A stretch of 37,517 nucleotides of DNA from a bacterium (GCA_043779265.1 JAYWEM010000118.1:1-37517), one strand, 5' to 3'. Counted from the first letter of the stretch, positions 8,186-31,503 are shown. A program made the numbers and translations. The notes: generated by a model not told the origin, from the sequence alone.

Positions 8186-9568
8186 TCAGTACGATCTCTC
8201 CGAGTCGGACGCGGTCAAAGGCGAATACGGCACGAACTTGGTGCACTCGCGGATGAACGTCAGGTCGACATCATCGGTCGGGCCGTTACGCTGCTTGGCG
8301 ATGATCACCTGCGCCTTGCCCGGCTCCGGCGTGTCCGGCTTATACATCACCTCGCGATAGACGAACATCACGACGTCGGCATCCTGCTCGATACTGCCCG
8401 ACTCGCGAAGATCCGAGAGCTGCGGCCGGCCGCCACCGCCTCGCTGTTCAACGGCGCGCGAGAGCTGCGAAAGCGCGATGATCGGCACGCTCAGCTCTTT
8501 GGCCAATGCCTTCAGGCCGCGCGAGATCTGCGAGATCTCCTGGACGCGGTTCTCCGCGTTCGTGCTGGCGCGCATGAGCTGGAGGTAGTCGATCACGATC
8601 AGGCCGAGCTTGTTCTCGGACTTCAGCCGGCGGCACTTGGCGCGGATCTCGAGCACCGACTGGGCCGGCGAGTCATCGATGTAGATCGGCGCCTGCGTCA
8701 GCAGCCCGGCGCCAGTGGTGAGCCGCGGCCAGTCCTCGTTGCCGAGGAAGCCGGTTCGCACCTTGTGCAGCGGCACCTCGCTCTGCGAACAGAGCAGACG
8801 CATCGCCAACTGCTCTTTGCTCATTTCGAGCGAGAACACCGCGACCGGGACATTGAATCGGATCGCCGCGTTCTCGGCCATGTTCATGACGCACGAGGTC
8901 TTGCCCATGGCGGGTCGTCCGGCCAGGATGATGAGGTCGCCCGGCTGCCACCCGCTCGTCAGCTTGTCGAGGTCGTCCCATCCGGTCGGCACGCCCGTGA
9001 CCTGCACCTTGCGCTCGAACAGCTTCTGGATGTTGTCGAACGTCGGCTTGAGCAGGTCGCGGATGCTGGTGAAGCCCTGACGGATGCGCTGGTCGGTGAT
9101 GCCGAAGATGCGCGCCTCGGCCTGGTCGAGCAGGATCGCCGTCTCCTCATTGCCGCTGTAGCACTGCTGCTGGATCTCGGTGCTCGCCTTGATCAGTTCG
9201 CGCAGAATCGACTTGCTGTGCACGATGCGCGCGTGATGCTCGAGGTTGGCCGAGGTCGTGGCGTGATCGAGGATCTGCGCGAGTCCGGCCGCGCCACCGA
9301 TCGCCTCGAAGTCACCGCGCCGCTTGAGCTCCTCCGAGACGGTGATGACGTCGGCAGGTTCGTTGCGATTGAACAGCGAGACCAGCGATTCGAAGATCTT
9401 GCCGTGGGCGCTGCGGTAGAAGACGTGGGCGTCGATGATCTCGACGGCACGGCCGATGGCCGTCACGTCCAGCATCATCGCGGCCAGGATCGATCGCTCG
9501 GCATCGAGCGCCTGCGGCGGCGCCAGCGGGGCTCCGCTCATCGATTGTTCTCTCAAGGTGTCGGACAT
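8186..9568 (-). CDS. dnaB: Replicative DNA helicase
   Basis: Motifs PPQALDAERSIL, Walker A GRPAMGKT, FSLEM, IDYLQL, LSQLSR, DLRESGSIEQDAD and KQRNGP. Confidence 0.98.
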   Translation of the reverse strand: MSDTLREQSMSGAPLAPPQALDAERSILAAMMLDVTAIGRAVEIIDAHVFYRSAHGKIFESLVSLFNRNEPADVITVSEELKRRGDFEAIGGAAGLAQILDHATTSANLEHHARIVHSKSILRELIKASTEIQQQCYSGNEETAILLDQAEARIFGITDQRIRQGFTSIRDLLKPTFDNIQKLFERKVQVTGVPTGWDDLDKLTSGWQPGDLIILAGRPAMGKTSCVMNMAENAAIRFNVPVAVFSLEMSKEQLAMRLLCSQSEVPLHKVRTGFLGNEDWPRLTTGAGLLTQAPIYIDDSPAQSVLEIRAKCRRLKSENKLGLIVIDYLQLMRASTNAENRVQEISQISRGLKALAKELSVPIIALSQLSRAVEQRGGGGRPQLSDLRESGSIEQDADVVMFVYREVMYKPDTPEPGKAQVIIAKQRNGPTDDVDLTFIRECTKFVPYSPLTASDSERSY

Positions 9569-9605
9569 GGGGTCCTTCCCGGCGCTCAGGCGCCACGCGC
9601 GGGGA

Positions 9606-10547
9606 TCAATCGGTCAGGTATTCCTGGGCAAGTCGCTGGAGATCGTCCCACACGGGCTTCTTGGCACTCGGGCTGCGCAGGCAATAGGCGGGATGATACG
9701 TGACGATGAGCTTGGCGCCCTTCCATCGATAGGTCTTGCCGCGCATCGCGGCGAGCGTTCCGCCCTTCATGCCGAGCAGCAGTTCCGCGGCGAAGCGACC
9801 GAGGCAGCAGATGATGCGTGGCTGCAGCGCCTCGAGCTGGCGCATCAGGTAGGGCGCGCAGTGCTGGATCTCGTCGGGCATCGGATTGCGATTGTCGGGC
9901 GGCCGGCACTTGAGCACGTTGGCGATGAACACGCTCTCGCGCGTCAGCGAGACGCCCGGGATCAGGCCGCGATCATCCATGCCCTTGATCATCGAAGTGA
10001 GCAGTTCACCGGCGCGCCCCACGAACGGCTCGCCTCGCTCGTCCTCATCGGCGCCGGGGGCCTCGCCCACGAAGACGATCCCGGTGCGCGCGCTTCCGAT
10101 GCCGGGGACGGCGTTGGTGCGCGTCCGGTGCAGGCTGCACTTCTCACAAGCGCGCGCCTCAGCCGCGATGGCGTCAAGCACCGGCAGCGATGCCGACTCG
10201 ATCGAAGCGCGCGCTCCACTCATCGCCGCGGGCCACAGGAGCTCGGCGAACGGGGGCAGCACGACGGCATCGGCAACGACGTGGGTGACGCGCGGCATGG
10301 GTTCCGGCTCGGGAAGGTGGGGCGTGTACGCGGCGGCCGGCGGATCGGCCAGGGCGGCGGGCGCGAGCGAAGGCGGCGCCACGGCCGAGGGCGCAGTGTA
10401 GCTGCCCAGATCGGGCAATGCGATACCCGCGCGACGAGCGCGCGCCATGCCGCTGAGGATCGACTCCCCACCGCTTCGCTCGCGCTGGATCGCCAACCGC
10501 AGCGCCCGCGTGATACTCGCGGCCTCCTGCCTCAGCTCATCGCTCAC
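9606..10547 (-). CDS. Type-4 ([4Fe-4S]) uracil-DNA glycosylase with a Pro/Ala-rich N-terminal extension
   Basis: Motifs CEKC, VGEAPGADED, PFVGRAG, NVLKCRPPDNRNP and TYHPA. GTG start overlaps the coaBC stop. Confidence 0.92.
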   Translation of the reverse strand: MSDELRQEAASITRALRLAIQRERSGGESILSGMARARRAGIALPDLGSYTAPSAVAPPSLAPAALADPPAAAYTPHLPEPEPMPRVTHVVADAVVLPPFAELLWPAAMSGARASIESASLPVLDAIAAEARACEKCSLHRTRTNAVPGIGSARTGIVFVGEAPGADEDERGEPFVGRAGELLTSMIKGMDDRGLIPGVSLTRESVFIANVLKCRPPDNRNPMPDEIQHCAPYLMRQLEALQPRIICCLGRFAAELLLGMKGGTLAAMRGKTYRWKGAKLIVTYHPAYCLRSPSAKKPVWDDLQRLAQEYLTD

Positions 10548-11893
10548 CGGGCGCGGCCCTTGCCGCGAATGGCTTGCAGCACGGGGGCTTTGCGGACGCT
10601 GACGCGCTTGGCCGGCGCCCGGCGTGCAACCGAGGCTCGGGGGCTCGGGCCCTTCGGTCGGGGGGCGCCGCCGGGGCGCAATTCGAGGACACGCTCGAGG
10701 ATCGCCTCGGCCACTTCGCGCTTGCTGCGCTCGGGCAGTTCGGTCGAGCTCCGGGCCTCGACGAACGTGACGCGGTTGGTCTCGGTGCCGAGCGCCTTGT
10801 CCGGCGAGTTGAGCACGATCAGGTCGCAGCGCTTGGACTTCAGCTTGGCGCGCGCATGGGCAACACCGTCCTGCGTCTCGAGTGCGAACCCCACCAGCAC
10901 CTGGCCGCTCGGCCGCGCTTTGCCTAGACGAGCGAGGATGTCGGGATTGGGCGTCAGGGTCAGCGTCTCGTCGGCACCCTTGCGTTTGATCTTCTGGCGC
11001 GACGTCTTGGCGGGGCGATAGTCCGCGACGGCAGCCGCCATCACGACGACGTCCGCACGCGGCGCAGCCTCGTCCATGGCGCGCTGCATCTGCAGCGCGG
11101 TCACGACCGGAACCAGCACGACTCCATGCGGCGGATCGATGGAGACCGGCCCGCACACCACGGTCACGTTGGCGCCGCGATCGCGCGCGGCCTCGGCAAG
11201 CGCGAAGCCCATGCGGCCGCTCGAGCGATTGGTGAGCATGCGAACGGGATCGAGCGGCTCCTCGGTGCGCCCGGCTCCGATCACGACGCGCAGGCCGCGC
11301 ATGCTGGAGCGGTGGGTCACAGCGCGCTCACAGGCCTCGACGATGGCACCGATCTCGGCGAGTCGGCCGGGACCGGCGAGTCCCGAGGCGAGCGGACCGG
11401 AGTCAGGACCCACGATCACCGCGCCTCGAGCACGCATCGCCGAGACGTTGGCCTGCGTCGCGGGCGAGCGCCACATCTCGAGATCCATGGCGGGCGCCAC
11501 GACGAGCGGCGCGCGCGAGGCGAGCACCGCAGAAGTGAGCGCATCGGGCGCCTGACCGTGAACGATGCGCGCCATCAGGTCGGCGGTCGCCGGCGCGATC
11601 ACCAGGCAGTCCGCGACCTCGGCGACATCGACATGCTCGACTCGGCCACGAAAACGCTTGGCGTGGGTGGCGGGCAAATCGAACTGTGGGCGCTGATCGC
11701 CCCACAGATCGCTCACCACCGGATTGCCGGAGAGCGCCTGGAACGTGAGAGGCGTGACGAACTCCCGGGCAGCGGGAGTCATCACCACGATGCATGTGGC
11801 TCCACGGTCGCGCAGCCGGCGGACGAGTTCGCAGGCCTTGTAGGCTGCGATCCCGCCCGAGACGCCGACCACGACGACGCGGCCCCGGAGCAC
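10544..11893 (-). CDS. coaBC: Bifunctional phosphopantothenoylcysteine decarboxylase / phosphopantothenate-cysteine ligase
   Basis: Motifs GVSGGIAAYK, APATAD, PAMDLEMW, EPLDPVRMLTNRSSGRMG, AAAVADY, KIK and VGFALET. Confidence 0.96.
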   Translation of the reverse strand: MLRGRVVVVGVSGGIAAYKACELVRRLRDRGATCIVVMTPAAREFVTPLTFQALSGNPVVSDLWGDQRPQFDLPATHAKRFRGRVEHVDVAEVADCLVIAPATADLMARIVHGQAPDALTSAVLASRAPLVVAPAMDLEMWRSPATQANVSAMRARGAVIVGPDSGPLASGLAGPGRLAEIGAIVEACERAVTHRSSMRGLRVVIGAGRTEEPLDPVRMLTNRSSGRMGFALAEAARDRGANVTVVCGPVSIDPPHGVVLVPVVTALQMQRAMDEAAPRADVVVMAAAVADYRPAKTSRQKIKRKGADETLTLTPNPDILARLGKARPSGQVLVGFALETQDGVAHARAKLKSKRCDLIVLNSPDKALGTETNRVTFVEARSSTELPERSKREVAEAILERVLELRPGGAPRPKGPSPRASVARRAPAKRVSVRKAPVLQAIRGKGRAR

Positions 11894-13753: not shown

Positions 13754-13988
13754 AGATGCGGAACACTTTGCTTGACAGGCGTTTGCGATGCCCTTGCCCG
13801 GCCTCGGGACCCATTCGCCGAGGCTTTCGTGAGCGGGGCTGGCGTGAATGCTCGCGGCTTCGCGGTGCCGACCCGGGCGAAGTCCACTCGGAGCGGGCGA
13901 TTCGTCGCCTGGCGGGCACGTCCGGGAGTCGCGAAAGCTCGTGATAGAAAGAGGATGCCCTCGCGACTCGCCCCTGTGGATACTCGTC

Positions 13989-15314
13989 ATGCGCTCACTG
14001 ACCCATTTGGCGGATCACGTCGTTCTTCAGCAGCTCAAGTCGCTCGCCACTCGGGAACGCACCACAATGGCCGAATTGCTGGCGCATCTGGCCGAGGCCG
14101 ACGAGCGGCGCCTCCACCTGCCGTCCGCCTATCCCTCGATGCACCTCTACTGCGTGCACGAGTTGGGGCTGTCCTCCGATGAGGCGTTCAAGCGCATTCG
14201 CGTGGCACGGGCGGCGCGCGAGTTCCCCGAGATCCTCTCGGCGATAGCCGATGCTCGGCTCCACTTGAGCGCCGTCGTCCAGCTGGCCCCTCATCTGACG
14301 AGTCAGAATGCGAGCGACCTGTTGGCGGCTGCCGCCCACAAGTCGAAGGTCGAGATCGCGTTTCTGCTTGCTGAGCGGTTCCCCGTCTTGGGTGCGGCGG
14401 CAGGGGCGACTGGCACCGAAACGGGCGGCGCGACTCCTGACTCGTCGAATTCCCAGCAAAACCAACTGGTTCCGGAACCAGTTGGGCCCTGTTCGGCCGA
14501 CTCATCCCCCGTCGTCGCCTGCTCCGAGCCCCCGAGGCCGAATCCAGCGCCTGCCGCACACATCGACCTGACACTTCGCATCGGCAGGACTGCCCACGAG
14601 AAGCTCCGCTACGCACAGTCGCTGCTCGGGCACGCTGTTCCCTCGCAGGAGTTGGCGGCGGTGATCGAGCGCGGCATGGACGCGCTGATCGAGAAGCTCG
14701 AGCGCCGGATCTTCGCTGCCGCCGGCCGAACGCGTCCGAGGCGAGGCGCGGCCAAGGGGCGGCATGTGCCGGCCGAGTTGCGCCGCGAGGTCTGGCATCG
14801 CGACGGCGGGCGATGCACGTTCACGAGCGATCGCGGGCAGCGCTGCCCTTCGTGCACGCGACTGGAGTTCGATCACTTGACTCCCGTGGCGCGCGGCGGC
14901 GAGACGACCCTTCCCAACCTGCGGCTCCGGTGCCGGGCCCACAATCAGTACGAGGCCGAGCGCACGTACGGGGCGGGGTTCATGGCGCGCAAGCGCCAGG
15001 AGGCCAAAGAGCTCACGGCGCGCGGGCGGGTCGCTGCGCGTGGCGAAGCGATGCGTTCTGTCGCCGAGGCCCGGCACGAGGACTCCGACGAACAGTCAAT
15101 CGTACCTACTCAGGCCGAGCTCAATGCGCGACGCAACGAGATCATCCCGTGGCTGCGGCAGTTGGGGTTCCGCGCGACCGAGGCGAAGCAGGCCGCTGCC
15201 TTGTGCGATGCCTTGCAGGAGCAGCCGCTCGAGGCGCGTGTCCGATTCGCGCTCGCAGGGCTCGGGCGCGAGCGCTACCTGCGCAGCACGCCAGGAGCGC
15301 TCGCGAGCGGCTGA
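13989..15314 (+). CDS. HNH endonuclease with DUF222-like N-terminus and RuvA-C-terminal-like tail (probable selfish/mobile gene)
   Basis: HNH/Zn motif VPAELRREVWHRDGGRC...RC...LEFDHLTPVARGG...NLRLRCRAHN. Helical N-terminus ELLAHLAEADERRL...YCVHELGLS. Tail IIPWLRQLGFRATEAKQA. Start chosen at MRSLTHL. Confidence 0.8.
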   Translation: MRSLTHLADHVVLQQLKSLATRERTTMAELLAHLAEADERRLHLPSAYPSMHLYCVHELGLSSDEAFKRIRVARAAREFPEILSAIADARLHLSAVVQLAPHLTSQNASDLLAAAAHKSKVEIAFLLAERFPVLGAAAGATGTETGGATPDSSNSQQNQLVPEPVGPCSADSSPVVACSEPPRPNPAPAAHIDLTLRIGRTAHEKLRYAQSLLGHAVPSQELAAVIERGMDALIEKLERRIFAAAGRTRPRRGAAKGRHVPAELRREVWHRDGGRCTFTSDRGQRCPSCTRLEFDHLTPVARGGETTLPNLRLRCRAHNQYEAERTYGAGFMARKRQEAKELTARGRVAARGEAMRSVAEARHEDSDEQSIVPTQAELNARRNEIIPWLRQLGFRATEAKQAAALCDALQEQPLEARVRFALAGLGRERYLRSTPGALASG

Positions 15315-15361: not shown

Positions 15362-15444
15362 GCGAAACGCCGCGAGGGGGATCGCGGCGTTCGCAGGCCC
15401 GGACGGACGTCGGGCCGAGACCGGTGGGGGATGCCCCCGGTCTC
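15362..15444. terminator. Three tandem GC-rich hairpins between convergent genes (probable bidirectional terminator/stabiliser)
   Basis: AACGCCGCGA/TCGCGGCGTT (15366-15391), GGCCCG/CGGGCC (15396-15416) and GAGACCGG/CCGGTCTC (15417-15444). No U-tract. Confidence 0.5.
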
Positions 15445-17915
15445 TACATCGGGATCTTGTAGCGCTTCATCTTGGCGAGCATCGTCGTGCGCGACAGGCG
15501 CAGCATGCGGGCCGCGTCGGCCTTCACGCCGCTCGACTTCTCGAGCGCATCGAGGATGCGCTTGCGCTCCTGCTCTTCCATCTCCTCGAGGAAATTGCGT
15601 GGCGCGCTGGCGTCATCGAGCTGGAGCTCGCGCGGCAGGATCACCTGCCCATCCTTCGACTGAGCGACGAGCCGATGCACGAGCGACCGAAGCTGGCGCA
15701 CGTTGCCCGGCCACATGTAGTCGAGCAGTTGATCACGCGAGGCGGACGAGAGTCGGACCCGCTTGCCCTCGTCCTCGCCGAACACCTCGAGGAAGTGATC
15801 GATCAGCACCTCGGCATCATCCCCACGCTCGCGCAGCGGCGGCAGCGTGAAGACCGCATGCGCCAAGCGGAAGTAGAGATCCGAGCGGAAACCGTCGCCA
15901 CTCGCGAGTTTGGACTGCTCGCGATTGGTCGCGGCCAGCAAGCGCACGCGCACGCGCGTGTCCTGGGTGGCGCCGATGCGACGAAGCGAACCGTTCTCGA
16001 GGAAACGCAGGAGCTTGGCCTGCAGGTCGACGCTCATCTCGCCGATCTCATCGAGGAAGACCGTGCCACGATCGGCGGACTCGAAGAGCCCCGGCTTGTC
16101 GCGATCCGCGCCGGTGAACGCACCGCGCACATAGCCGAACAACTCCGCCTCGAGCATGGTGGGCTGGATCGCGCTGCAGTTGATCGCCACGTAGTCGCCC
16201 GTGCGGCCTGAGAGCTGATGGATGCCATGCGCGATGCGTTCTTTGCCCGTACCGGACTCGCCCAGTACGAGCACCGGGATGTCACTCGGCGCGAGTGCGG
16301 CGACCTGGTCGAGCATGTCGAGGAACGCCTTGTGGCGCGTGACGAGCCCGAAGGTCTCGTAGGCCCACTGCATGCGGCGCTGCAGTTCGATGTCGCGCAC
16401 CGGGCGGCGCCGCGGACGTGGCCGGATCTCGGAATCCGAGGTCGCCTGGTCGGACTCCTCCTTGAGACGCTCCTCCAGTTCGGCCAGTCGCTTGTGAGCC
16501 TCGGACAGCTTGTACTCCGAGCGCATGCCGTCGAAGTGCTCGATCGCGGCGCGGTAGGCATCGCGCGCCGCACGGAAGCTGAAGTAGTGCTGCGAGTGCG
16601 CCGAGCACAGCCAGTCACCATAGGACACCCAGAGCTTGCCCCACTCGTAGGGTGTCTGGATCTCGTCGAAGATCTGGAACGCCTTGGCGAACGCACCTTG
16701 TGCGTCGACCGGCTTGCCCGCTCGAGCGAGCAGCAACCCGAGCACGCGCAGCGAGCAGGCGAGTTCGTAGACATCGCCACACTCACGCGCGATCGACTCG
16801 GCCTCGCGAACCGCCTCGAGCCCCGACTCGACCTTGCCCAAGTGAAGCAGACACTCAGCGCGGCGGCGCTGGATTTCACAGGCGACATCGCCGCGAGGAG
16901 CTAAGGCGACCACCTGCGGTCGAAGCACATCAAGCATCCCGATGCCAGCCTCGAACTCGCCGCGCTCAAGAAAGACATCAATCGCATACTCAGCGCACAG
17001 CCACGAGGGCCTAGGGTGTTCGCTACGCGAGACGCACAGTCGAGCATCAAACGTCTTGGTCGCTTTCGCGAAATCTCCGCCGTGGAGCTGGATGAGACCG
17101 GAGAGAAGGCGTGCATAGTCGATGCTGATCGGACTGATTAGCTCGTTTGCCCGAGCCATGACGCCTTCCATAGCCACCGAGGCTTCCTGCAATCGCCCCT
17201 GCTTCCAATGCACGAGAGCTAGGGAGTGCCGTGCGCGAAGCTCCCACTGCTTCCAGCCCCCCAGCGCGAAGCAACGGCTCGCTTCAGTCATCGATTCGAT
17301 GGCCGAGCTCCACCTGCCCAGGCCCCGCATACACTGTCCGTGATTGATCCAACCTAGGCCCTCTGTAAACGCACTCTTGCAACGTCGTCCGCTAACGATT
17401 GCTTCCATGGCGAAGACGGAGCCAACAAGCCACTGGCCACCGTTGACATACACCGCCGACAAGTTAGCGGCTGCTTGCGCTAGCGGCTCAGTGTCGGCCC
17501 GCTGCAACAACTCATCTCGAATGCACATGAGTTCGCTTATCGCCTGATCGGCTCTTCCAAGCTTCGCATGCGAGAATGCGAGCAGAGACCTTGCGAACAT
17601 GCTCGTGCTTGAGTCGGGCGAGTCAAGCTCAAGCCGAATGATGTCGGTGGCGGATTCAGCTGCGTCTTGGTTGCGGTCGCAATTGAGCAGAATGCGAGTC
17701 TTGGTCAGACGAACTTCCATCTCGAACCTGAACGGCAGGCGCCTTGAGTCCAGCGCCAGGTTGGCGAGTTCGAGTCCTGCCTGAATTTCGGCTTCCTTCA
17801 GGAGGCCGAGGATGCAGTCGGAGAGCGCGCCTGCGACCACGGGCGAGAGCACACCAGTCGTGCCGTCCTCGAACAAAGCACGGAGCGCCGCTGACTGCTC
17901 GAGGCGATTGCTCAC
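15444..17915 (-). CDS. Sigma54-dependent enhancer-binding protein with a long N-terminal TPR/helical-repeat sensor and C-terminal Fis-type HTH
   Basis: Walker A GESGTGKE, NCSA, ELFGYVRGAFTGA (intact GAFTGA), FLDEIGE, FRSDLYFRL, WPGNVRQL and HTH AARMLRLSRTT. About 490 aa of TPR-like repeats with no receiver domain. Confidence 0.92.
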   Translation of the reverse strand: MSNRLEQSAALRALFEDGTTGVLSPVVAGALSDCILGLLKEAEIQAGLELANLALDSRRLPFRFEMEVRLTKTRILLNCDRNQDAAESATDIIRLELDSPDSSTSMFARSLLAFSHAKLGRADQAISELMCIRDELLQRADTEPLAQAAANLSAVYVNGGQWLVGSVFAMEAIVSGRRCKSAFTEGLGWINHGQCMRGLGRWSSAIESMTEASRCFALGGWKQWELRARHSLALVHWKQGRLQEASVAMEGVMARANELISPISIDYARLLSGLIQLHGGDFAKATKTFDARLCVSRSEHPRPSWLCAEYAIDVFLERGEFEAGIGMLDVLRPQVVALAPRGDVACEIQRRRAECLLHLGKVESGLEAVREAESIARECGDVYELACSLRVLGLLLARAGKPVDAQGAFAKAFQIFDEIQTPYEWGKLWVSYGDWLCSAHSQHYFSFRAARDAYRAAIEHFDGMRSEYKLSEAHKRLAELEERLKEESDQATSDSEIRPRPRRRPVRDIELQRRMQWAYETFGLVTRHKAFLDMLDQVAALAPSDIPVLVLGESGTGKERIAHGIHQLSGRTGDYVAINCSAIQPTMLEAELFGYVRGAFTGADRDKPGLFESADRGTVFLDEIGEMSVDLQAKLLRFLENGSLRRIGATQDTRVRVRLLAATNREQSKLASGDGFRSDLYFRLAHAVFTLPPLRERGDDAEVLIDHFLEVFGEDEGKRVRLSSASRDQLLDYMWPGNVRQLRSLVHRLVAQSKDGQVILPRELQLDDASAPRNFLEEMEEQERKRILDALEKSSGVKADAARMLRLSRTTMLAKMKRYKIPM

Positions 17916-18253
17916 TGATTGCTCCGCATCGAAGGCAAGCGAGAGTTTGCACCGAAGAAGTCGGAGCTCACTATCATCACGGGAAGCGCCAGCTGAGCAC
18001 CGCCCCTAACGTAGTTCTGCACGAACGTGATGAGACGGACTCTGAAGTCACCCGCGATAGGCTGGGTCCGCGCACCGATTCCCCCATCCGGATCCCCCGC
18101 CAGCATCCCGCCACCGACTGGCTCGAGAAGGTCCTGCTTCTCGTCGCCGTTGTTGTGTCCGCCTCGCGGGGCGGCTGAGAGCGGGCCGGCGCACAGGCTG
18201 AACAGCATCACGAGCGCGAGCGCTCGCATTCCCCACTTCCGCCACGACGTCAT
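17912..18253 (-). CDS. Small exported protein (113 aa) with Sec signal peptide; candidate signalling pro-peptide
   Basis: SD AAAGGGGAG. Signal-like MTSWRKWGMRALALVMLFSLCAGPLSA followed by APRGGHNNGDEKQDLLEPVGGGMLAGDPDGG. Its stop overlaps the bEBP GTG (GTGA). Confidence 0.7.
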   Translation of the reverse strand: MTSWRKWGMRALALVMLFSLCAGPLSAAPRGGHNNGDEKQDLLEPVGGGMLAGDPDGGIGARTQPIAGDFRVRLITFVQNYVRGGAQLALPVMIVSSDFFGANSRLPSMRSNQ

Positions 18254-18459
18254 GTCCGCGACTCCCCTTTGTGAGTGCACGGGACCTTCGGGAGCAGCCG
18301 GCCCGGGAACGGCGGCAGGTCCATGCACAGAACACGAAACCCCATGGCGGCAGGCGGCCGTCATGGAGCGGAGTTCGGGATCTTCGGGCCGGATCGAGAG
18401 GGGGATCACGGGGAATGGTCTCCAACGCCGAGAGATCGCTGCACCGGGCAACTTCGCTC

Positions 18460-18596: not shown

Positions 18597-18774
18597 GGGC
18601 AGCGGCTCATCTCTCCACCGATGACCCATCCGACATTCCCCTTCCAATTCCATCCACCCGTTCGCTAGGGTTTCCACGATGGGGGACACGGGCACCCATC
18701 TCGGACCACACGGTCCGCGCTCCGCTCCCCAGGCCGGGGACGGGCACCCGAAGGTGCCTCGGAGGCCGTCGCCC

Positions 18775-21174
18775 ATGATCAGTCGGCGCTTCAACCGCAG
18801 TGCAAGGGGTCTTCTCCTCGCCCTGCTGGCCGCGCTCTCGTCTGGCTGCTCGCGCCCGATGTCGGCGCTCACGCCGGACCAGTGCCCCTCGATCCAACTC
18901 GCCGGCGTTCCCGAGCGAGGCGAAGGCTCGCAGTCGGTCACCTATCGGATCCGGTGGCAGGGCGCCGATCTCGACGGCAGCGTGAGCCACTTCGAGTACG
19001 CGCTCGACCCGCCTTCGCAGGCGCAGGCCGCAGCGGGCCGCGAGACGACTTGGGTTCGCACGGACTCCCGTGAGTACACGCTCGAGATCCGCGGCACGAG
19101 CGCGCCGCTCGACAAGAAGGCGGTGCGCGAGTTCCACACGTTCGTCGTGCGCGCCGTCAACGTGCGCGCGGAGCCGGCGTCGCGCTACTCGGAGCCGCTC
19201 ACGATCTCGTTCGACCGCTTCACGGTCGCGCCCGTCGTGCAGATCCTCACGCCTCGGCCGAACGCGCTGCTGGAGCCGGTGCTCAACCAACCCGTCGATG
19301 TGCGCTGGCAGGGACAGGACCTCGATGGCAGCCCGTCCACGATGCCCGCCTACTACAAGTTCAAGCTGTTCCGTCCGGGCGATTCGCCGAGCATCGCCAC
19401 GTGGCTCGCCAACCCCGACTCGCTGGGCCGCCACTATGGCCCGTCGGGTTTCGCGGGCTGGGACTCAGTCGGCGGTGGGGTCGAGTACCTGGGGATCGAT
19501 GCCGAGCTCCCTGACGCGCTTCATCTGTTCGTGGTCGTGGCGTTCGATGTGACGGGCGCCTACTCGCCGGTCTTCAGCCTCAACACGAACATGCTGAGGT
19601 TCCGTACCGCGCCTGCGGGCGGGATCCCGCCCACCTTGTTCGTCGGGTGGAGCGTCGGCTCCGGAGGCGCACCACCCGCACCAGTCCTCGCTCCGAGTCC
19701 GCTTCGGCTCGACGTCCCGGCCGGTCGGGTGATCGACTTCCTCTGGTACGCCGTGCCGCCGCAGGGGGCGTCGATCAAGGGCTACCGGTGGACCATCGAG
19801 TCGGTCGACCTCGGCGATGACACGCGGCGCGACAACGAGGAGACCGACTGGTTCCGCTGGAGCATGGCGGGACTCCACGCCACCACCGCGCGCGTCGGCC
19901 CCTTCGCAGCCGATGAGACGCACACGCTCTGTGTCGAGGTGACCGACAACTCAGGACATCGCGCGCTGACCATCACGCGATTCCACACGTTCGGCGCACA
20001 GCTTGACCAGGACCTCCTCATTGTCGACGACACGCGACTCCTGCCGGACCAGATAGCGGCCACTTCCGACCCGAGCGGTCAGCGCTGCCTGCGGCCCTAT
20101 GCCTCGAGTTCGCCATGGCCGGCCGCCGCCGAACTCGACACGTTCCTCTACGCCGTCGGCGGCAAGCCGTGGCGCGGCATCGCTGCCAATTGTCCGACAC
20201 CTTCGAACCCACCGGTGCTCAGCACGCCAGGACTGTTCGCCGGCTACCGATTCGACACACTCGGAACACGGCTGAGATTCGAGGACGCCGTCACGGCCAC
20301 TCCGATCTCCACGCTGGCGCGATACCGGAACATCGTCTGGCTGGTCGACTCGCCGTCAGCTCAACTGACGAGCATCCTCGACCCGATCCGTCCGATGACC
20401 GCGCTGCGGTCGATGCATCGCGCTGGCTCGACCAACGTGCTCCAGAACTACATCGCGGTGGGTGGCCGTGTGTGGCTCGTGGGCTCGGGTGGCGCGCTCG
20501 CGAGCCTCATCGACGAGGACCGTCCGGGGAACAATCTCCCGCTCGGCGTGGTGTTCGGCTCGGCCTACGGCGACCTGCCGTCATCGAACTCCATCGCCTC
20601 GCAGTTCCACTGGAAGTCGGAGCTCATCGTCTCGCGGACGACGGCGAGCATCGACCGCGCTCCTGGCGTGCCACACGCAGCGCTGCCCGCCGAGCTGCGA
20701 CGCCGCACTCCGGCCACGGACGCGATACCCGCCTCTCGTTCGGCGAGCGCGACCGCGGCGTTCTACTTCACGAACCTGGATGTGTCCTACCTGAGCCAGC
20801 CCAACTCGATCATCGAGGACGTCGACTTGTCTCCTGGAGTCGTCCACGAACAGGGCACGCTCGACACGCTCTACTCACTCGATGGCAGCGGCGGCGGCCT
20901 GCATCCGGCGGGGAACACGTCGCCGCGCCCGATCATGACGCACTACCACGGGCCATCGAACGCTCCCACCGTGCTGAGTGGATTCAACTTGTGGGACCTC
21001 GCACGCCCCGACGCCACGGCGCTCGTGGACTACGTGCTCGGCGATCTCTGGGGGCTCACGCGGCAGGGCGGCGCGGGACTCGCATCGCTTCGTGCTCCCG
21101 GCCGCCTGCCGGGCGTCACACCCGCGCAGGCGGCGGCTCGCTCACGATTGCCGGGAGCACTCGGCCGGAGATAG
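18775..21174 (+). CDS. Large lipoprotein (799 aa) with about three Fn3/Ig-like modules and a C-terminal alpha/beta domain; function unknown
   Basis: SD GGAGG at 18761. Lipobox LSSGC. Repeated W-x-G-x-D-x-DG beta modules (IRWQGADLDG, VRWQGQDLDG). C-terminal LLIVDD...YRNIVW...GGRVWLVG. Confidence 0.8.
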   Translation: MISRRFNRSARGLLLALLAALSSGCSRPMSALTPDQCPSIQLAGVPERGEGSQSVTYRIRWQGADLDGSVSHFEYALDPPSQAQAAAGRETTWVRTDSREYTLEIRGTSAPLDKKAVREFHTFVVRAVNVRAEPASRYSEPLTISFDRFTVAPVVQILTPRPNALLEPVLNQPVDVRWQGQDLDGSPSTMPAYYKFKLFRPGDSPSIATWLANPDSLGRHYGPSGFAGWDSVGGGVEYLGIDAELPDALHLFVVVAFDVTGAYSPVFSLNTNMLRFRTAPAGGIPPTLFVGWSVGSGGAPPAPVLAPSPLRLDVPAGRVIDFLWYAVPPQGASIKGYRWTIESVDLGDDTRRDNEETDWFRWSMAGLHATTARVGPFAADETHTLCVEVTDNSGHRALTITRFHTFGAQLDQDLLIVDDTRLLPDQIAATSDPSGQRCLRPYASSSPWPAAAELDTFLYAVGGKPWRGIAANCPTPSNPPVLSTPGLFAGYRFDTLGTRLRFEDAVTATPISTLARYRNIVWLVDSPSAQLTSILDPIRPMTALRSMHRAGSTNVLQNYIAVGGRVWLVGSGGALASLIDEDRPGNNLPLGVVFGSAYGDLPSSNSIASQFHWKSELIVSRTTASIDRAPGVPHAALPAELRRRTPATDAIPASRSASATAAFYFTNLDVSYLSQPNSIIEDVDLSPGVVHEQGTLDTLYSLDGSGGGLHPAGNTSPRPIMTHYHGPSNAPTVLSGFNLWDLARPDATALVDYVLGDLWGLTRQGGAGLASLRAPGRLPGVTPAQAAARSRLPGALGRR

Positions 21175-25185: not shown

Positions 25186-25785
25186 ATGACGGGCAATCCC
25201 CCGCTCCCGCCGCCCGAGGATTCGATCGACCTGGTCCAGCGGATCCAGGCAGGCGACGACGCGGCCTGGGAGCGGCTCTACCTGAGGTTCCGCGACCGAC
25301 TGCTGCTCTCGATCCGCTGCCGGCTCGGCGCCTCCCTGCGCGCGAAGCTGGAGTCCGAGGACATCCTGCACAGCATGTTCCGCGACGCGTTGTCCGACCT
25401 GCAGCGCTTCGTGCCGCAGGGCCCCTCATCGGTCAACCACTACCTGCACACCTGCGTGCTCAACAAGATCCGCTCCAAGGCCGAGCACTTCGGCGCGCTC
25501 AAGCGCCGCGGCGAGGTGGCGCTCACCGACTCCATGCTGGCCGCGCTGCCGAATGCCGCGGACTCCGAACCGCGCTACAGCGACTTCGACACGTTCGACC
25601 GGCTCGAGCGGGCGCTCGCGCGCCTGCCCGATGAGACACGCGAGGTCATTCTGTTGCGACTGGTCGAGGACGTGCCCAATCAGGACGTCGCCGTCTCGCT
25701 CGGCAAGTCCCCCGAGGCCGCCTCCAAGCTCTATCAGCGCGGGCTCGCACGCCTCGCCGTCCTGATGACCGGCACACCGGCATGA
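25186..25785 (+). CDS. ECF sigma factor (kinase-associated, Planctomycete-like type)
   Basis: Sigma2 GDDAAWERLY...RLGASLRAKLESEDIL. Sigma4 LARLPDETREVILLR...VAVSLGKSPEAASKLYQRGLARL. ATGA overlap with the kinase. Confidence 0.9.
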   Translation: MTGNPPLPPPEDSIDLVQRIQAGDDAAWERLYLRFRDRLLLSIRCRLGASLRAKLESEDILHSMFRDALSDLQRFVPQGPSSVNHYLHTCVLNKIRSKAEHFGALKRRGEVALTDSMLAALPNAADSEPRYSDFDTFDRLERALARLPDETREVILLRLVEDVPNQDVAVSLGKSPEAASKLYQRGLARLAVLMTGTPA

Positions 25786-27971
25786 GCGACGATCCGGTCG
25801 AGGCGGCCGTCCTCGCTTACCTCGAGCGGCGCGATTCCGAGCCTCTCCTGACCCCCGAGGCGTTCGCCGCGGCCCAGCTCGAGTCGCAATCGGCGATCCT
25901 CACTGGCATCCGAGCCGCGCTCGACCTGGAACGCCTGCTCGCGAGCGACTCGCCCACCGAGCGACGCATCGGACCCTATCGGCTGCTCGGCGAGTTGGGC
26001 CGAGGCGGCATGGGCGTGGTGCATCGCGCCGAGCGCGACGGCCGCGAGGTCGCCATCAAGATCCTGCCGCTGGCGCCTCTGATGGGCGCGCGGATGATGA
26101 CGCGATTCGAGCGCGAGGCCGCGGCACTCGCGCGACTGTCGCACCCCAACATCGTGCGGGTGCATGACTCGGGCGTGCACGAAGGCGTGCCCTATCTGGT
26201 GATGGACCTGATCGAGGGCCGTCCGCTCAGCCAGATCGCCGCATCGCTCGGCGAGCGCGACTCGGTCGCGCTGCTGCGCACGCTCGCCGAGACCGTGCAT
26301 GTGGCGCACACGCAGGGCGTGCTGCATCGCGACATCAAGCCGCAGAACATCCTGGTGCGGGCGGACGGCTCGCCCGTGCTGCTCGATTTCGGACTGAGTG
26401 TGTTCGATGAAGCCTCGAGCCTGACGATGACCGGCGACGTATTGGGGACGCCTCGCTACATGGCACCCGAGCAACTGACCGGCGGCACCATCGACGCACG
26501 CACCGATGTGCATGCGCTGGGCCTCATCCTCTATGAACTGGTGACCGGGCAACCGGCGCACGATCCCGGCACGCGTGAGGCGGCGTTCGACTCGGTGCGG
26601 CAGGGCCGCATCGCATCACCCCGCACCCATCGGCCGCAGATCACTCGTTCGCTCGAGGCGGTGATCCTCACCACACTCGCGCGCGACCCTGCCGGCCGCT
26701 ATCCCGATGCCGCCGCCCTCGCCGCCGACCTCGCACGTTGCGAGCGCGGCGAGCCGACCTGGGCGAAGCCCGCGAGCGCCGCGACACGGATCGCGCAGTC
26801 GCTGCTGAGCGCGCCCGCTCGATTGCGCTCGGCGCTTCGCACCACGCTGTCGGCGCCGCCCGAGGACCGCCACCGCGCCGGCGCACTCATCGACAGCGCC
26901 GTGCGGGCATGGGCCGACGGCGAACGCGATGCGGCGTGCCGTCAGCTCGATCAGGCGCACCGGCTCGACCGGCGCGAACCCACCGCCGCGCTGCTGTTGG
27001 CCCACCTCGAGGGGCGAATGCTGCCGCAGGGTTCACCCGAGGCAGCGGCTCTCGCCTCGGCGCTGCGGCATCACGAGGCGGGTGAGCATCGCCTCGCGCT
27101 GACGGAGCTGCCCTCGGCCGACTCGGGCGATGTGCGCGCCTCGCTGCGTTCCGCGATCGCCGGGCTGTCGTCGGCGCATGCCGGCGACGACGCGCAGGCG
27201 TTCGAGGAACTCACCACCGCCGCCCGTCTGCTGCCGGGCTCGAAGCGCATCCAGCGCACGCTCGCGCTCGTCTGTCAGCGTCTCGGTCGGCTGGATGACG
27301 CGGTGCGCGCGCACGCGCGCGCGCTCGAGCTCTCGCCCGATTCGGCGGACGGCTGGGCCGATCTCGCCGAGGTGCACGTGAAGCAGCGCGCTGTGCAAGA
27401 GGGGATGCACGCGCTGGCGCGCGCGGAAGCGCTGGCCTCGGGCGAGCGGCCGCGCCTGCTGCGCATCCATGGCAGCCTCGAGATCCTCACCGGCCGGCCG
27501 CTCGAAGCGAAGCTGCTGCTGGGCCGCGCGCTCGAACTCGATCCCGAGGATGCCGAGTCGCGCTTCGGACTCGCCTACGCGCTCGACAGCGATCACGACA
27601 TGGCGGCGGCGGCGATCGCCTACGAACACGTGCTCGAGGTGGCCCCGGGACACGTGCACTCGCTCGTCTGCCTCGCCAACCTCCACTCCGGCGCTTCGCG
27701 CGGCCAGTGCCGACGATGCGACGAGTTCTATGCGGCGCACCCCGATCACTTCGACCCGCGCCGCGCCGAGGCCTACCTGCTGCGCGCCTTCGAGTCCGAC
27801 CGTGGCGCCGACGACTGGGCGACGCGGACGGCGCGCGACATCGCACTTCGGCTCGAGGATCGCGCGAGCGTGATCGCGCTGCTCACGCGACTGACGCAGG
27901 GCGCCGCGCGCACGCCGGCCGTGCTGCGCTTGGAAGAGGCCCTGCGCCGAGTGCAGTTCCTCGCCGGCTGA
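25782..27971 (+). CDS. Hanks-type Ser/Thr protein kinase with C-terminal TPR repeats
   Basis: Motifs GELGRGGMGVV, VAIK, HRDIKPQN, DFG and GTPRYMAPEQ. TPRs such as RALELSPDSADGWADLA and RALELDPEDAESRFGLA. Confidence 0.93.
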   Translation: MSDDPVEAAVLAYLERRDSEPLLTPEAFAAAQLESQSAILTGIRAALDLERLLASDSPTERRIGPYRLLGELGRGGMGVVHRAERDGREVAIKILPLAPLMGARMMTRFEREAAALARLSHPNIVRVHDSGVHEGVPYLVMDLIEGRPLSQIAASLGERDSVALLRTLAETVHVAHTQGVLHRDIKPQNILVRADGSPVLLDFGLSVFDEASSLTMTGDVLGTPRYMAPEQLTGGTIDARTDVHALGLILYELVTGQPAHDPGTREAAFDSVRQGRIASPRTHRPQITRSLEAVILTTLARDPAGRYPDAAALAADLARCERGEPTWAKPASAATRIAQSLLSAPARLRSALRTTLSAPPEDRHRAGALIDSAVRAWADGERDAACRQLDQAHRLDRREPTAALLLAHLEGRMLPQGSPEAAALASALRHHEAGEHRLALTELPSADSGDVRASLRSAIAGLSSAHAGDDAQAFEELTTAARLLPGSKRIQRTLALVCQRLGRLDDAVRAHARALELSPDSADGWADLAEVHVKQRAVQEGMHALARAEALASGERPRLLRIHGSLEILTGRPLEAKLLLGRALELDPEDAESRFGLAYALDSDHDMAAAAIAYEHVLEVAPGHVHSLVCLANLHSGASRGQCRRCDEFYAAHPDHFDPRRAEAYLLRAFESDRGADDWATRTARDIALRLEDRASVIALLTRLTQGAARTPAVLRLEEALRRVQFLAG

Positions 27972-28092
27972 GCCGCGCGGCTGCCAGCGGCGGCCGCCCG
28001 ATAAAAGAGTGTCCCGGCGCCGCCCGGAATCCTTCTCTAAGAGGAGAGGGTCCGGCACCCGAGCCAGGCCCCAGCCCCCGAGGAGGCCTGCC

Positions 28093-31371: not shown

Positions 31372-31503
31372 TCGGGGGACTGCCGGCTCGTCAGGACGCA
31401 CGAGTTCCCGGTGGGTGGGCCCGGTCGGGTCCATCGCCCACTGCCGGGTCTCGGCGTCCGCGCGACTCGCGCGCGGGGCGCCCTCCTCGTTAGAGTGCGC
31501 ACC

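What the first reader, a model, noticed from the sequence alone, without database searches (positions are those of the whole stretch)
15444..18253. Secreted small protein coupled to a TPR-sensor sigma54 activator: candidate RRNPP-like peptide signalling system with sigma54 output
Seen: a 113-aa ORF with a strong SD and a Sec signal peptide (…GPLSA|A). Its mature part starts with a Gly/Asp-rich segment containing AGDPDGG. Its stop overlaps the start of an 823-aa protein made of ~490 aa TPR-like repeats, an intact AAA+ GAFTGA domain and a Fis HTH, with no receiver domain and no histidine kinase nearby. Known: RRNPP receptors (Rap/Rgg/NprR/PlcR/PrgX/AimR) use TPR domains to bind re-imported peptides encoded by an adjacent small exported pro-peptide gene, and are described mainly in Firmicutes and their phages. 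Inference: this pair may be an analogous peptide quorum or kin sensor wired to sigma54 in a diderm lineage. I know of no description of that architecture.
Basis: partly seen in the sequence, partly recalled or inferred. Interest (0 to 1): 0.85.

Follow-up and report, generated by a model that had tools for sequence, protein, structure and literature searches.

The report
Exported mini-protein paired with TPR sigma-54 activator
A small exported, mostly unstructured protein with an almost invariant Gly-Asp-Pro-Asp core is encoded directly in front of, and overlapping, a large cytoplasmic sigma-54 gene activator with a repeat-type sensor, and this pair recurs across an uncultured bacterial lineage, so it is probably an undescribed signal-and-receptor pair whose binding is still unproven.

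Summary
On the minus strand a 113-aa ORF (17912-18253) has a strong ribosome-binding site and a signal-peptide-like N-terminus. It ends in a GTGA overlap with an 823-aa TPR / AAA+ (GAFTGA) / Fis-HTH sigma-54 activator (15444-17915).

- Of 35 assessable orthologue loci, 32 have a complete upstream ORF with a signal peptide and a G-[DE]-P-x core. Two more are cut by contig ends, and one lacks it. A random-position control fired at 28 of 4000 positions.
- Of 20 regions around other bEBPs, 14 have the same kind of ORF. Four PAS/HisKA-type regions have none.

Beyond the signal peptide and the core the small protein diverges almost freely. It is predicted disordered, and 25 of 32 copies lack a second membrane segment. 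Its divergence tracks the variable N-terminal 300 residues of the TPR region.

Binding, processing, re-import and the target promoters are not shown. It fails the RRNPP receptor-size criterion and has a different output domain, so it may work like RRNPP but is not a member. I found no description in five literature searches. Earlier notes of this scan report the same kind of cassette on other DNA (e1-7659457, e1-7297520; Zixibacteria variants).

The parts
18262..18270 (-). Shine-Dalgarno-like AAAGGGGAG, 8 nt before the ATG of the small ORF
   Evidence: Read directly. The region from this site through the core motif is 76% identical to the same-genus genome G002. The rest of the ORF is 38% identical.
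17912..18253 (-). Small ORF of 113 aa: exported, mostly disordered mini-protein
   Evidence: It matches no Pfam family and no NCBIfam family. Public gene calls hold it as a 113-aa protein, and the word-based search of near-length proteins found no relative other than itself. A positional and architectural counterpart is present at 32 of 35 orthologue loci.
18170..18253 (-). Signal-peptide-like N-terminus (residues 1 to about 28; cleavage probably after ...SA or ...SAA)
   Evidence: Hydropathy and charge heuristic. AF2 helix at residues 3-21 with pLDDT about 86-92. The feature is conserved in all 32 aligned copies. SignalP was not run.
18086..18097 (-). Core motif G53-D54-P55-D56, encoded as GGG GAT CCG GAT
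   Evidence: and alignment A1. The core is GDPD in 25 of 32 copies and GEPD in 3, with 4 single variants. The codon triplet GGG GAT CCG occurs in 18 of 32 copies, against 12 of at least 214 G-D-P tripeptides in long ORFs of this genome.
18002..18046 (-). The only predicted structured element of the mature part: a helix at residues 70-84, hydrophobic, aromatic and basic
   Evidence: AF2 on alignment A1: block pLDDT about 75, with the rest of the mature part at 52-64. Amphipathicity is not significant against shuffles (2 of 32 copies at or below 0.05).
17912..18001 (-). Variable C-terminal tail kept open up to the activator start
   Evidence: DNA identity after the motif is 38-40% in two same-genus pairs, with indels that are not multiples of 3. 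The codon-position signal is weak: GC1/2/3 are 0.65/0.55/0.65, against 0.67/0.53/0.78 for the 5' part. Even so, the frame runs to within -20 to +14 nt of the activator start in 31 of 31 loci.
17912..17915 (-). GTGA: the stop of the small ORF overlaps the GTG start of the activator (translational coupling)
   Evidence: A 4-nt overlap occurs in 15 of 31 loci and an 8-nt overlap in 4. The start codon was picked as the one nearest the stop, which leans towards small gaps.
15444..17915 (-). Sigma-54 activator (bEBP), 823 aa: TPR sensor, AAA+ domain, Fis-type HTH
   Evidence: Pfam. Orthologues at 39-76% identity occur in the same family. All 37 public relatives listed carry PF00158 and have only generic names.
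16416..17915 (-). N-terminal TPR-type superhelix (residues 1-500). Residues 1-300 are fast-evolving and 300-500 are conserved
   Evidence: Pfam hits at residues 102-420. Atlas model alignments over residues 1-488. Alignment A2. Mean pairwise distance is 0.69 for the N part and 0.45 for the C part.
15858..16343 (-). AAA+ sigma-54 interaction domain, with Walker A (16242-16262), GAFTGA (16107-16124) and Walker B (16038-16052)
15459..15581 (-). Fis-type HTH_8 DNA-binding domain
   Evidence: E 1.2e-10.

Best explanation
The two genes form one conserved signalling cassette.

Shown:
- The small gene encodes a signal-peptide-bearing, largely disordered protein of about 85 mature residues.
- Its only conserved parts are the signal peptide and a hydrophobic-G-D/E-P-D-x-G/P core.
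- It is made together with a cytoplasmic TPR / AAA+ / HTH sigma-54 activator through overlapping stop and start codons.
- The pairing is kept across orthologues and across diverged TPR-type relatives.

Inferred, as the most likely mechanism:
- The mini-protein is exported by Sec and cut by signal peptidase.
- The protein, or a protease-resistant fragment around the acidic Pro-containing core, is the ligand of the variable N-terminal part of the TPR superhelix.
- It reaches that sensor again through a peptide permease.
- Ligand binding changes the hold of the TPR domain on the AAA+ module. Regulatory N-domains do this in other bEBPs, and sensor domains do it in MalT-type regulators.
- This gates hexamer assembly and transcription from sigma-54 promoters that lie elsewhere in the genome.

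The flanks of the invariant core would give each cassette its specificity.
For: Conserved pairing:
- 32 of 35 assessable orthologue loci have a complete ORF of this kind. Two are cut by contig ends but show the motif, and one (L036) has none.
- The detector fires at 28 of 4000 random positions in this genome, and at 7 of 4000 with an equally hydrophobic N-terminus.
- The whole own genome gives 2 hits.
- The same architecture sits in front of diverged TPR-type bEBPs in other families: 14 of 20 regions, plus L065:3601-3942. None of the 4 regions with PAS/HAMP/HisKA N-termini has it.

Protein-level constraint on the core: synonymous variants such as GGC GAC CCC GAC keep G-D-P-D, and the only replacements at the second position are Asp to Glu.

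Export is the conserved property: the signal peptide is present in all 32 copies. Only 7 of 32 copies have a TM-like 19-residue window after the motif (own protein 1.16), so the mature protein is not membrane-anchored as a rule.

The TPR region is of the peptide-binding TPR_12 type. Profile hits include LGN/Pins (E 2e-19), kinesin light chain (2e-12), RapJ (4e-8), RapF (3e-6) and NprR (3e-5).

Co-divergence: the small protein tracks the variable TPR N-part (r 0.62; partial r 0.50; 0 of 2000 permutations). It does not track the conserved C-part once the N-part is controlled (partial r 0.09; 264 of 2000).

Some genomes hold several diverged cassettes. G014 has three, as expected of parallel signal channels.

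Permissive only: the genome encodes 3 OppA/DppA-type binding proteins, OPT transporters and rpoN.
Against: - No binding, processing or import has been shown.
- The organism is presumably diderm, so a signal shared between cells would also have to cross the outer membrane.
- No protease or transporter travels with the cassette. Across 18 neighbourhoods (117 proteins scanned), one OPT transporter lies two genes away in a single locus, and the flanks are housekeeping genes such as YicC/NFACT or MetK/AhcY.
- The core is nearly invariant across diverged cassettes. A specificity-determining pheromone would be expected to vary there.
- The gene order (small gene upstream, overlapping the receptor start) differs from the RRNPP pairs that I recall.
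- The motif codons are conserved at synonymous sites beyond what the amino acids need. That hints at an extra constraint at the nucleotide or translation level.
- The mirror-tree signal can arise merely because two fast-evolving sequences both resolve recent divergence.
- No sigma-54-type promoter scoring at least 10 of 12 lies anywhere in the window, so the output is unknown.
Confidence: 0.4

Rival explanations
1. Export-coupled antagonist or secretion sensor. The TPR domain binds the mini-protein in the cytoplasm before it is exported. Sec export removes it, so activator activity reports export capacity or envelope stress. The logic is that of FlgM / sigma-28, or of PspA / PspF for a sigma-54 activator (both recalled).
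For: - Overlapping stop and start codons fit equimolar co-production of a regulator and its partner.
- The mini-protein is disordered, as export-competent TPR clients are.
- No re-import step is needed.
- Co-divergence with the TPR N-part fits this reading as well as the ligand model.
Against: - Sec export is constitutive, so the switch would need a further input.
- Several diverged cassettes in one genome (G014) are hard to explain for a general secretion sensor.
- In the diverged group the genes are separated by 4-55 nt instead of overlapping.
Confidence: 0.2
2. Cis-acting leader. The small ORF is chiefly a translational device that resembles SecM, VemP or MifM. The signal peptide and a slow or arresting G-D-P-D site make translation of the coupled activator depend on export, with no binding to the TPR domain.
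For: - The architecture fits: a signal peptide, one short invariant Pro-containing motif, and an overlapping downstream gene.
- The tail is unconstrained in sequence but is kept open to the activator start in 31 of 31 loci.
- The motif codons are conserved at synonymous sites: GGG GAT CCG in 18 of 32 copies, against 12 of at least 214.
Against: - The motif lies about 56 codons before the stop, not beside the downstream ribosome-binding site.
- Predicted pairing between the motif and the activator's ribosome-binding site is under 0.3 expected pairs in 26 of 32 loci.
- There is no conserved local RNA structure: 2 invariant pairs and no covariation.
- The diverged cassettes are not overlapped.
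- G-D-P-D is not an arrest motif that I know of (recalled).
- This reading does not explain co-divergence with the TPR N-part.
Confidence: 0.15
3. Conserved neighbours without direct contact. The mini-protein is a periplasmic or envelope protein that is co-expressed with the activator or belongs to its regulon. The TPR domain senses another protein or metabolite.
For: - TPR domains bind many kinds of partner.
- The small protein matches no known family.
- No contact has been shown.
Against: - The pairing persists although every other neighbour changes.
- It persists across cassettes whose TPR regions are only about 25-35% identical.
- It is absent at the 4 non-TPR bEBPs examined.
- The small protein's divergence follows the TPR N-part specifically.
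Confidence: 0.2
4. Bitopic membrane anchor. After signal-peptide cleavage, a second hydrophobic segment holds the mini-protein in the membrane and its basic C-terminal tail binds the TPR domain in the cytoplasm, as in an anti-sigma factor.
For: - There is a hydrophobic, aromatic patch after the motif and a basic tail, which fits the positive-inside rule.
- AF2 predicts a helix at residues 70-84.
Against: - Only 7 of 32 copies reach a TM-like 19-residue hydropathy of 1.6. The own protein scores 1.16.
- The tail is not conserved even within a genus.
Confidence: 0.05

Closest known systems
RRNPP peptide quorum sensing of Bacillota and their mobile elements (Rap-Phr, NprR-NprX, PlcR-PapR, AimR-AimP)
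   Same: A small Sec-type exported propeptide gene lies directly beside a cytoplasmic receptor whose sensor is a TPR superhelix. Several diverged pairs can occur per genome. Weak profile similarity to RapJ, RapF and NprR (E 4e-8 to 3e-5).
   Different: - The receptor is 823 aa, against 250-500 aa in the RRNPP signature (passages of PMC10075063).
- The TPR sensor is N-terminal to an AAA+ sigma-54 module and a Fis-type HTH, not joined to an XRE-type HTH or a phosphatase surface.
- The small gene is upstream and overlaps the receptor start.
- 19 of 32 small proteins exceed 100 aa.
- The core motif is invariant.
- The host is presumably diderm.
- The best profile hits are LGN and kinesin light chain, not RRNPP proteins.
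bEBPs controlled by a separate partner protein (PspF-PspA, HrpS-HrpV, NifA-NifL; recalled, not tested here)
   Same: A sigma-54 activator whose activity would be set by a co-encoded protein rather than by phosphorylation. There is no receiver domain and no kinase nearby.
   Different: Those partners are cytoplasmic or membrane-peripheral and act on the AAA+ domain. Here the partner carries a signal peptide, and the activator has its own 500-residue TPR sensor.
MalT/AfsR-type (STAND) regulators with TPR-like sensor domains
   Same: A long TPR superhelix serves as the ligand-sensing arm of an ATPase-driven transcription activator. The Atlas model aligns to AAA_16-GerE proteins (TM by query 0.76-0.80). 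There are profile hits to AfsR and PH0952 (about 4e-7).
   Different: The ATPase is a sigma-54-type AAA+ domain, not a STAND NTPase. The domain order is reversed. The known ligands of those regulators are small molecules, not a co-encoded exported protein.
Secretion-monitor leader peptides SecM, VemP and MifM (recalled)
   Same: A signal-peptide-bearing upstream ORF with one short conserved Pro-containing motif, coupled to the next gene.
   Different: The motif is about 56 codons from the stop. No structure links the motif to the ribosome-binding site. The downstream gene is a transcription activator, not a Sec or YidC component.
The same kind of cassette noted earlier in this scan on other DNA (e1-7659457 and e1-7297520 with a G-D/E-P-D core; e1-7349123, e1-7539132, e1-6371949 and e1-7315928 in Zixibacteria with His-Pro-Trp or Pro-Trp-Asp-type motifs)
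   Same: An exported small protein directly in front of a TPR sigma-54 activator, conserved across a candidate phylum, with no binding shown.
   Different: Those are AI notes on other genomes, and I did not check their loci. Some report adjacent sigma-54 target cassettes, which I did not find here.

Membership tests
RRNPP (five-criterion signature of RRNPP_detector, PMC10075063, passages read) | Propeptide is small (10-100 aa) | tested here: not met
   The own ORF is 113 aa. The orthologues span 86-125 aa, and 13 of 32 are 100 aa or shorter.
RRNPP | Propeptide is secreted (Sec signal peptide, or PptAB) | tested here: inconclusive
   All 32 copies have a basic N-terminal region and a hydrophobic 12-residue window of at least 2.09. 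AF2 predicts an N-terminal helix. SignalP was not available and there is no experiment.
RRNPP | Receptor is 250-500 aa | tested here: not met
   The own receptor is 823 aa. The complete related frames at the other loci span 773-839 aa, apart from a 580-aa frame at L055, where the gene is read in two pieces.
RRNPP | Receptor harbours TPRs | tested here: met
   TPR_12 at E 3.8e-13, TPR_2 at 1.7e-9 and others.
RRNPP | Propeptide and receptor genes are directly adjacent | tested here: met
   4-nt overlap here. The gap is -20 to +14 nt in 31 of 31 loci.
RRNPP | Mature 5-10-aa peptide is imported by Opp and bound in the TPR groove | not testable with these tools
   Peptide permease genes exist in the genome, but that is only permissive.
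RRNPP | Receptor is homologous to the known RRNPP subfamilies | tested here: inconclusive
   RapJ, RapF and NprR appear at E 4e-8 to 3e-5, but below LGN/Pins (2e-19) and kinesin light chain (2e-12). This is generic TPR_12 similarity.
Bacterial enhancer-binding proteins (sigma-54 activators) | AAA+ domain with Walker A, Walker B and the GAFTGA loop | tested here: met
   PF00158 at E 1.8e-57. The three motifs are at residues 552-558, 598-603 and 622-626.
Bacterial enhancer-binding proteins | C-terminal Fis-type HTH, and a sigma-54 gene in the genome | tested here: met
   HTH_8 at residues 779-819. Sigma54_DBD on contig C155 at E 3.8e-62.
Bacterial enhancer-binding proteins | Activates an identified -24/-12 promoter | tested here: inconclusive
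   No match of at least 10 of 12 to TGGCACG-N4-TTGCW lies in the 37.5-kb window. Within 450 nt upstream of the small ORFs, 2 of 32 loci reach 10 of 12 and the rest score 9 or less. The target is unknown.
Secretion-monitor arrest peptides (SecM, VemP, MifM; features recalled) | Arrest motif at the C-terminal end, next to the downstream ribosome-binding site and linked to it by mRNA structure | tested here: not met
   The motif is about 56 codons before the stop. Motif-to-RBS pairing is under 0.3 expected pairs in 26 of 32 loci. No conserved structure was found.
C-terminal sorting signals (PEP-CTERM and relatives) | Motif followed by a TM helix and a basic cluster at the extreme C-terminus, recognised by curated models | tested here: not met
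   None of the 32 copies matches an NCBIfam sorting-domain model at E up to 1. A TM-like segment is present in 7 of 32.

The most novel reading that the evidence does not exclude
A lineage-wide family of sigma-54 activators is gated by a co-encoded exported peptide. This would be the first cytoplasmic TPR peptide-receptor signalling system of the RRNPP kind in double-membraned bacteria. It would have an ATP-driven sigma-54 output, an acidic G-D-P-D ligand core, and several parallel channels per genome. It would also be related in logic to the cassettes noted in Zixibacteria.
Probability: 0.33. Interest if true: 0.9.

Novelty: new variant of a known kind. Interest (0 to 1): 0.72.

Why it matters
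Sigma-54 activators are known to be switched by phosphorylation, small molecules or cytoplasmic partner proteins. Peptide-receptor signalling with cytoplasmic TPR receptors is known only from Bacillota and their mobile elements.

A conserved pair of an exported mini-protein and a TPR-gated sigma-54 activator would join these two fields. It would extend peptide (or exported-protein) sensing to uncultured double-membraned lineages. It would also give a compact two-gene switch with a definable ligand core, which can be tested with synthetic peptides and a purified domain.

Even if the small ORF turns out to be an export-coupled antagonist or a leader, it would be a new way of tying a sigma-54 regulon to the state of the cell envelope.

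Tried and rejected
- **Complex prediction** on TPR residues 1-500 (alignment A2) with mini-protein residues 29-113 (alignment A1): no verdict. The scores were 0.02 and 0.00 and the controls were not run. I do not use this either way.
- **The look-up of sequencing runs:** no RNA holder was listed. There were 2 DNA holders from one study, which may be the source of this DNA.
- **Sequence searches for the small protein:** the word-based search of near-length proteins found only itself among 18 candidates. I did not run the 'longer' or 'shorter' options, so fused or split forms are not excluded. The six-frame search of 40 relatives found only the same-genus copy (E 2.9e-23), and the rest were at E 0.004 or worse. 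The family is recognisable by position and architecture, not by HMMER with one sequence.
- **The search for related loci in genome contigs** with the single TPR sequence returned one locus, the same place as L004.
- **Sigma-54 autoregulation:** rejected for lack of a promoter.
- **The divergent 831-aa lipoprotein gene (18679-21174) as a conserved target:** rejected. It has no homologue in the 18 other neighbourhoods.
- **DUF6526, which follows sigma-54 promoters beside related cassettes in one genus:** not found in this genome, which is 92% complete. The control genomes did not ring either.
- **The palindrome ATCCGGAT inside the motif codons as a specific operator:** rejected. It has 102 copies in the genome.
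- **Amphipathic-helix test:** not significant.
- **Hydrophobic clustering after the motif:** significant in only 5 of 32 copies.
- **Atlas feature search:** gave only generic TPR clusters.
- **Rows dropped before counts:** 8 duplicate loci and 8 loci with under 250 nt upstream. L016 was dropped from the gap count because no activator ORF of at least 380 aa was found.


Full report
**What is there**

On the minus strand, a 113-aa ORF spans 17912-18253. It is preceded by AAAGGGGAG, 8 nt before its ATG. Its TGA stop overlaps the GTG start of an 823-aa ORF at 15444-17915.

The large protein has these Pfam matches:
- TPR families between residues 102 and 420;
- a sigma-54 interaction AAA+ domain at residues 525-686 (E 1.8e-57);
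- an AAA lid;
- a Fis-type HTH at residues 779-819.

Walker A, GAFTGA and Walker B are intact. There is no receiver domain. None of the 29 ORFs of the window that I scanned carries a histidine-kinase or receiver domain. The genome has one rpoN.

The small protein matches no Pfam or NCBIfam family. Apart from its own public gene call it has no relative in a word-based search of near-length proteins.

**Is the pairing conserved?**

Six-frame searches found full-length orthologues of the activator (39-76% identical) throughout the same family, and weaker TPR-type relatives in other families of the phylum. The single-sequence search for the small protein found only the same-genus copy.

Reading the DNA in front of each orthologue showed a same-strand ORF with a signal-peptide-like start and a G-D/E-P-D core. 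I then scored this with a rule-based detector.
- There were 43 unique loci, and 8 of them have under 250 nt upstream.
- Of the 35 assessable loci, 32 have a complete ORF of this kind.
- Two (L017, L039) run off the contig end but show the motif.
- One (L036, from a 65%-complete genome) has none.

The detector requires the motif, so invariance of G, D/E and P in alignment A1 is partly circular. Two controls address this. At random positions of this genome the detector fires 28 times in 4000, and 7 times with a comparably hydrophobic N-terminus. A six-frame scan of the whole genome yields 2 hits: this ORF and one unrelated membrane protein.

The ORF ends within -20 to +14 nt of the activator start in 31 of 31 loci. 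The overlap is 4 nt in 15 loci and 8 nt in 4. The start codon was chosen as the one nearest the stop, which favours small gaps.

**Beyond the orthologues**

I picked 20 regions at other bEBPs listed that had long open frames.
- 14 have an upstream ORF with a signal peptide and G-D-P-D, mostly followed by Pro, lying 4-55 nt before the activator.
- 4 of the 6 negatives begin with PAS, HAMP or HisKA domains, so they are not TPR-type. They serve as internal negative controls.
- The other two (L085, which is TPR-type, and L091, which is unassigned) have an upstream signal-peptide ORF without a matching motif.

One genome, G014, carries three such cassettes.

The flanking genes are not conserved. 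The cassette sits between YicC and NFACT genes here and in three other loci, and between MetK and AhcY in three others. In 18 neighbourhoods (117 proteins) no protease or transporter travels with it.

**Anatomy of the mini-protein**

Only the signal peptide and the core are conserved. The core is a hydrophobic residue, then G, D/E, P, D, any residue, then G or P.

AF2 on the 32-row alignment predicts the signal-peptide helix (residues 3-21) and one further helix (residues 70-84, pLDDT about 75). The rest is at pLDDT 52-64, which suggests disorder. Amphipathicity of a helix after the motif is not significant against shuffles (2 of 32 copies). Only 7 of 32 copies have a TM-like 19-residue window after the motif (own protein 1.16). 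This argues against a membrane-anchored form as the rule.

Between species of one genus, the DNA from the ribosome-binding site through the motif is 76-82% identical. After the motif it is 38-40% identical, with indels that are not multiples of three. The tail shows a weak codon-position signal, yet it stays open up to the activator start. In this family the tail therefore seems to be kept for translational coupling rather than for its sequence.

**An unexplained extra**

The four core codons are GGG GAT CCG GAT far more often than the amino acids require.
- GGG GAT CCG occurs in 18 of 32 copies, against 12 of at least 214 G-D-P tripeptides in long ORFs of this genome.
- GAT is used for the first Asp in 24 of 29 copies, against about 51% before Pro genome-wide.

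Synonymous variants that keep G-D-P-D also exist, so the protein-level constraint is real. Something else may act on the RNA or on translation. I found no pairing of the motif with the activator's ribosome-binding site and no conserved local structure. The contained palindrome ATCCGGAT has 102 copies in the genome and is not specific.

**The receptor side**

The N-terminal 300 residues of the TPR region evolve fast (mean pairwise distance 0.69), and residues 300-500 evolve slowly (0.45). The small protein's pairwise distances follow the fast part: r is 0.62, and the partial r given the slow part is 0.50, reached by 0 of 2000 permutations. They do not follow the slow part once the fast part is controlled: partial r is 0.09, reached by 264 of 2000 permutations. 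The sequences are related, and both partners are fast-evolving, so this is suggestive and not proof of co-evolution.

A profile of the TPR region hits peptide-binding TPR_12 proteins:
- LGN/Pins at E 2e-19;
- kinesin light chain at 2e-12;
- RapJ at 4e-8, RapF at 3e-6 and NprR at 3e-5;
- AfsR and PH0952 at about 4e-7.

The Atlas model of this protein aligns over residues 1-488 to TPR arms of MalT/LuxR-type regulators and kinases.

**Output**

No -24/-12 match of at least 10 of 12 lies in the window. None lies upstream of the small ORFs beyond 2 of 32 loci at 10 of 12. The divergent 831-aa lipoprotein gene is not a conserved neighbour. The regulon is therefore unknown.

In one genus, sigma-54 promoters precede DUF6526 genes beside related cassettes. 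That family was not found in this genome.

**Mechanism**

The shown facts are a conserved, co-translated pair, conserved export signals, a conserved acidic Pro-containing core, and a variable TPR arm. They fit best a signal-and-receptor reading in which the exported protein or a fragment of it is the ligand of the TPR sensor that gates the AAA+ module (0.4).

The rivals are:
- an export-coupled cytoplasmic antagonist (0.2);
- conserved neighbours without direct contact (0.2);
- a SecM-like cis-acting leader (0.15);
- a bitopic membrane anchor (0.05).

Peptide permeases are encoded in the genome. That is permissive only.

**Comparison with what is known**

Against the five-criterion RRNPP signature (passages of PMC10075063):
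- adjacency and TPRs are met;
- the Sec signal is met only by heuristic;
- propeptide size is narrowly missed;
- receptor size is clearly missed.

The output domain, the gene order and the host type also differ. So it may work like RRNPP, but it is not a member.

Five full-text searches found no description of such a pair. The terms were RRNPP with sigma-54; enhancer-binding protein, tetratricopeptide and sigma54; bEBP with TPR; Eisenbacteria with sigma-54; and RRNPP, propeptide and Gram-negative. For these I saw search listings and abstract starts only. Public relatives of the activator carry only generic names.

Earlier AI notes of this scan describe the same kind of cassette on other DNA, with the same core (e1-7659457, e1-7297520) or with other motifs in Zixibacteria. 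They also call this genome Candidatus Eisenbacteria. I did not check that label.

Noticed in passing
window 18086-18097 (-) and the same codons in 31 related loci: Conservation at synonymous sites in the core motif. GGG GAT CCG GAT is used far more often than the genome's codon and codon-pair usage predicts. No RNA structure or pairing explains it.
   Followed up: partly
window 15444-17915 and loci L063-L080: The TPR-bEBP genes have lower third-position GC (0.73-0.85) than almost all their neighbours, which are mostly 0.85-0.97. Window GC falls to 0.596 at 17001-18000. This could mean fast evolution or relaxed codon selection in the sensor part.
   Followed up: no
L065:6827, L071:3765, L076:15663: In one genus, strong sigma-54-type promoters (TGGCACG-N4-CTGCT, 11 of 12) precede DUF6526 genes that lie just downstream of other bEBP genes and next to these cassettes. 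This is a candidate target for the neighbouring activators. DUF6526 was not found in the window's genome.
   Followed up: partly
window 18679-21174 (+): An 831-aa lipoprotein-like protein (...LSSGC) with no Pfam match, transcribed divergently from the cassette. It has two paralogues in this genome (C151 at 44% identity, C70 at 34%) and is absent from the 18 other cassette neighbourhoods.
   Followed up: partly
window 13848-15314 (+): A 488-aa protein with a weak HNH endonuclease match (E 8e-4). It lies convergent to the activator and sits between it and the conserved YicC gene. In G160 the cassette abuts YicC directly, so this gene looks like an insertion.
   Followed up: no
L075 (G022:C1) about 8810-11104: The orthologous activator appears split by an IS element. 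Genes with rve and HTH_Tnp_1 domains lie between the AAA+ part and the TPR part.
   Followed up: no
L036 (G197:C39): This is the only assessable orthologue without the small ORF. The upstream frames hold short ORFs with a hydrophobic stretch but no motif, which may be a decayed copy.
   Followed up: partly
L070:58-2700 (G160): A DnaB helicase gene carries an intein with a LAGLIDADG domain. The window's own DnaB (8189-9568) has none.
   Followed up: no
window 25782-34185 (+): A row of three genes: a Ser/Thr kinase with TPRs, a 1120-aa S8 subtilase with a FlgD_ig-type C-terminal domain, and a Ser/Thr kinase with PD40 repeats. Secreted proteins with FlgD_ig ends also lie next to several related cassettes.
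   Followed up: no
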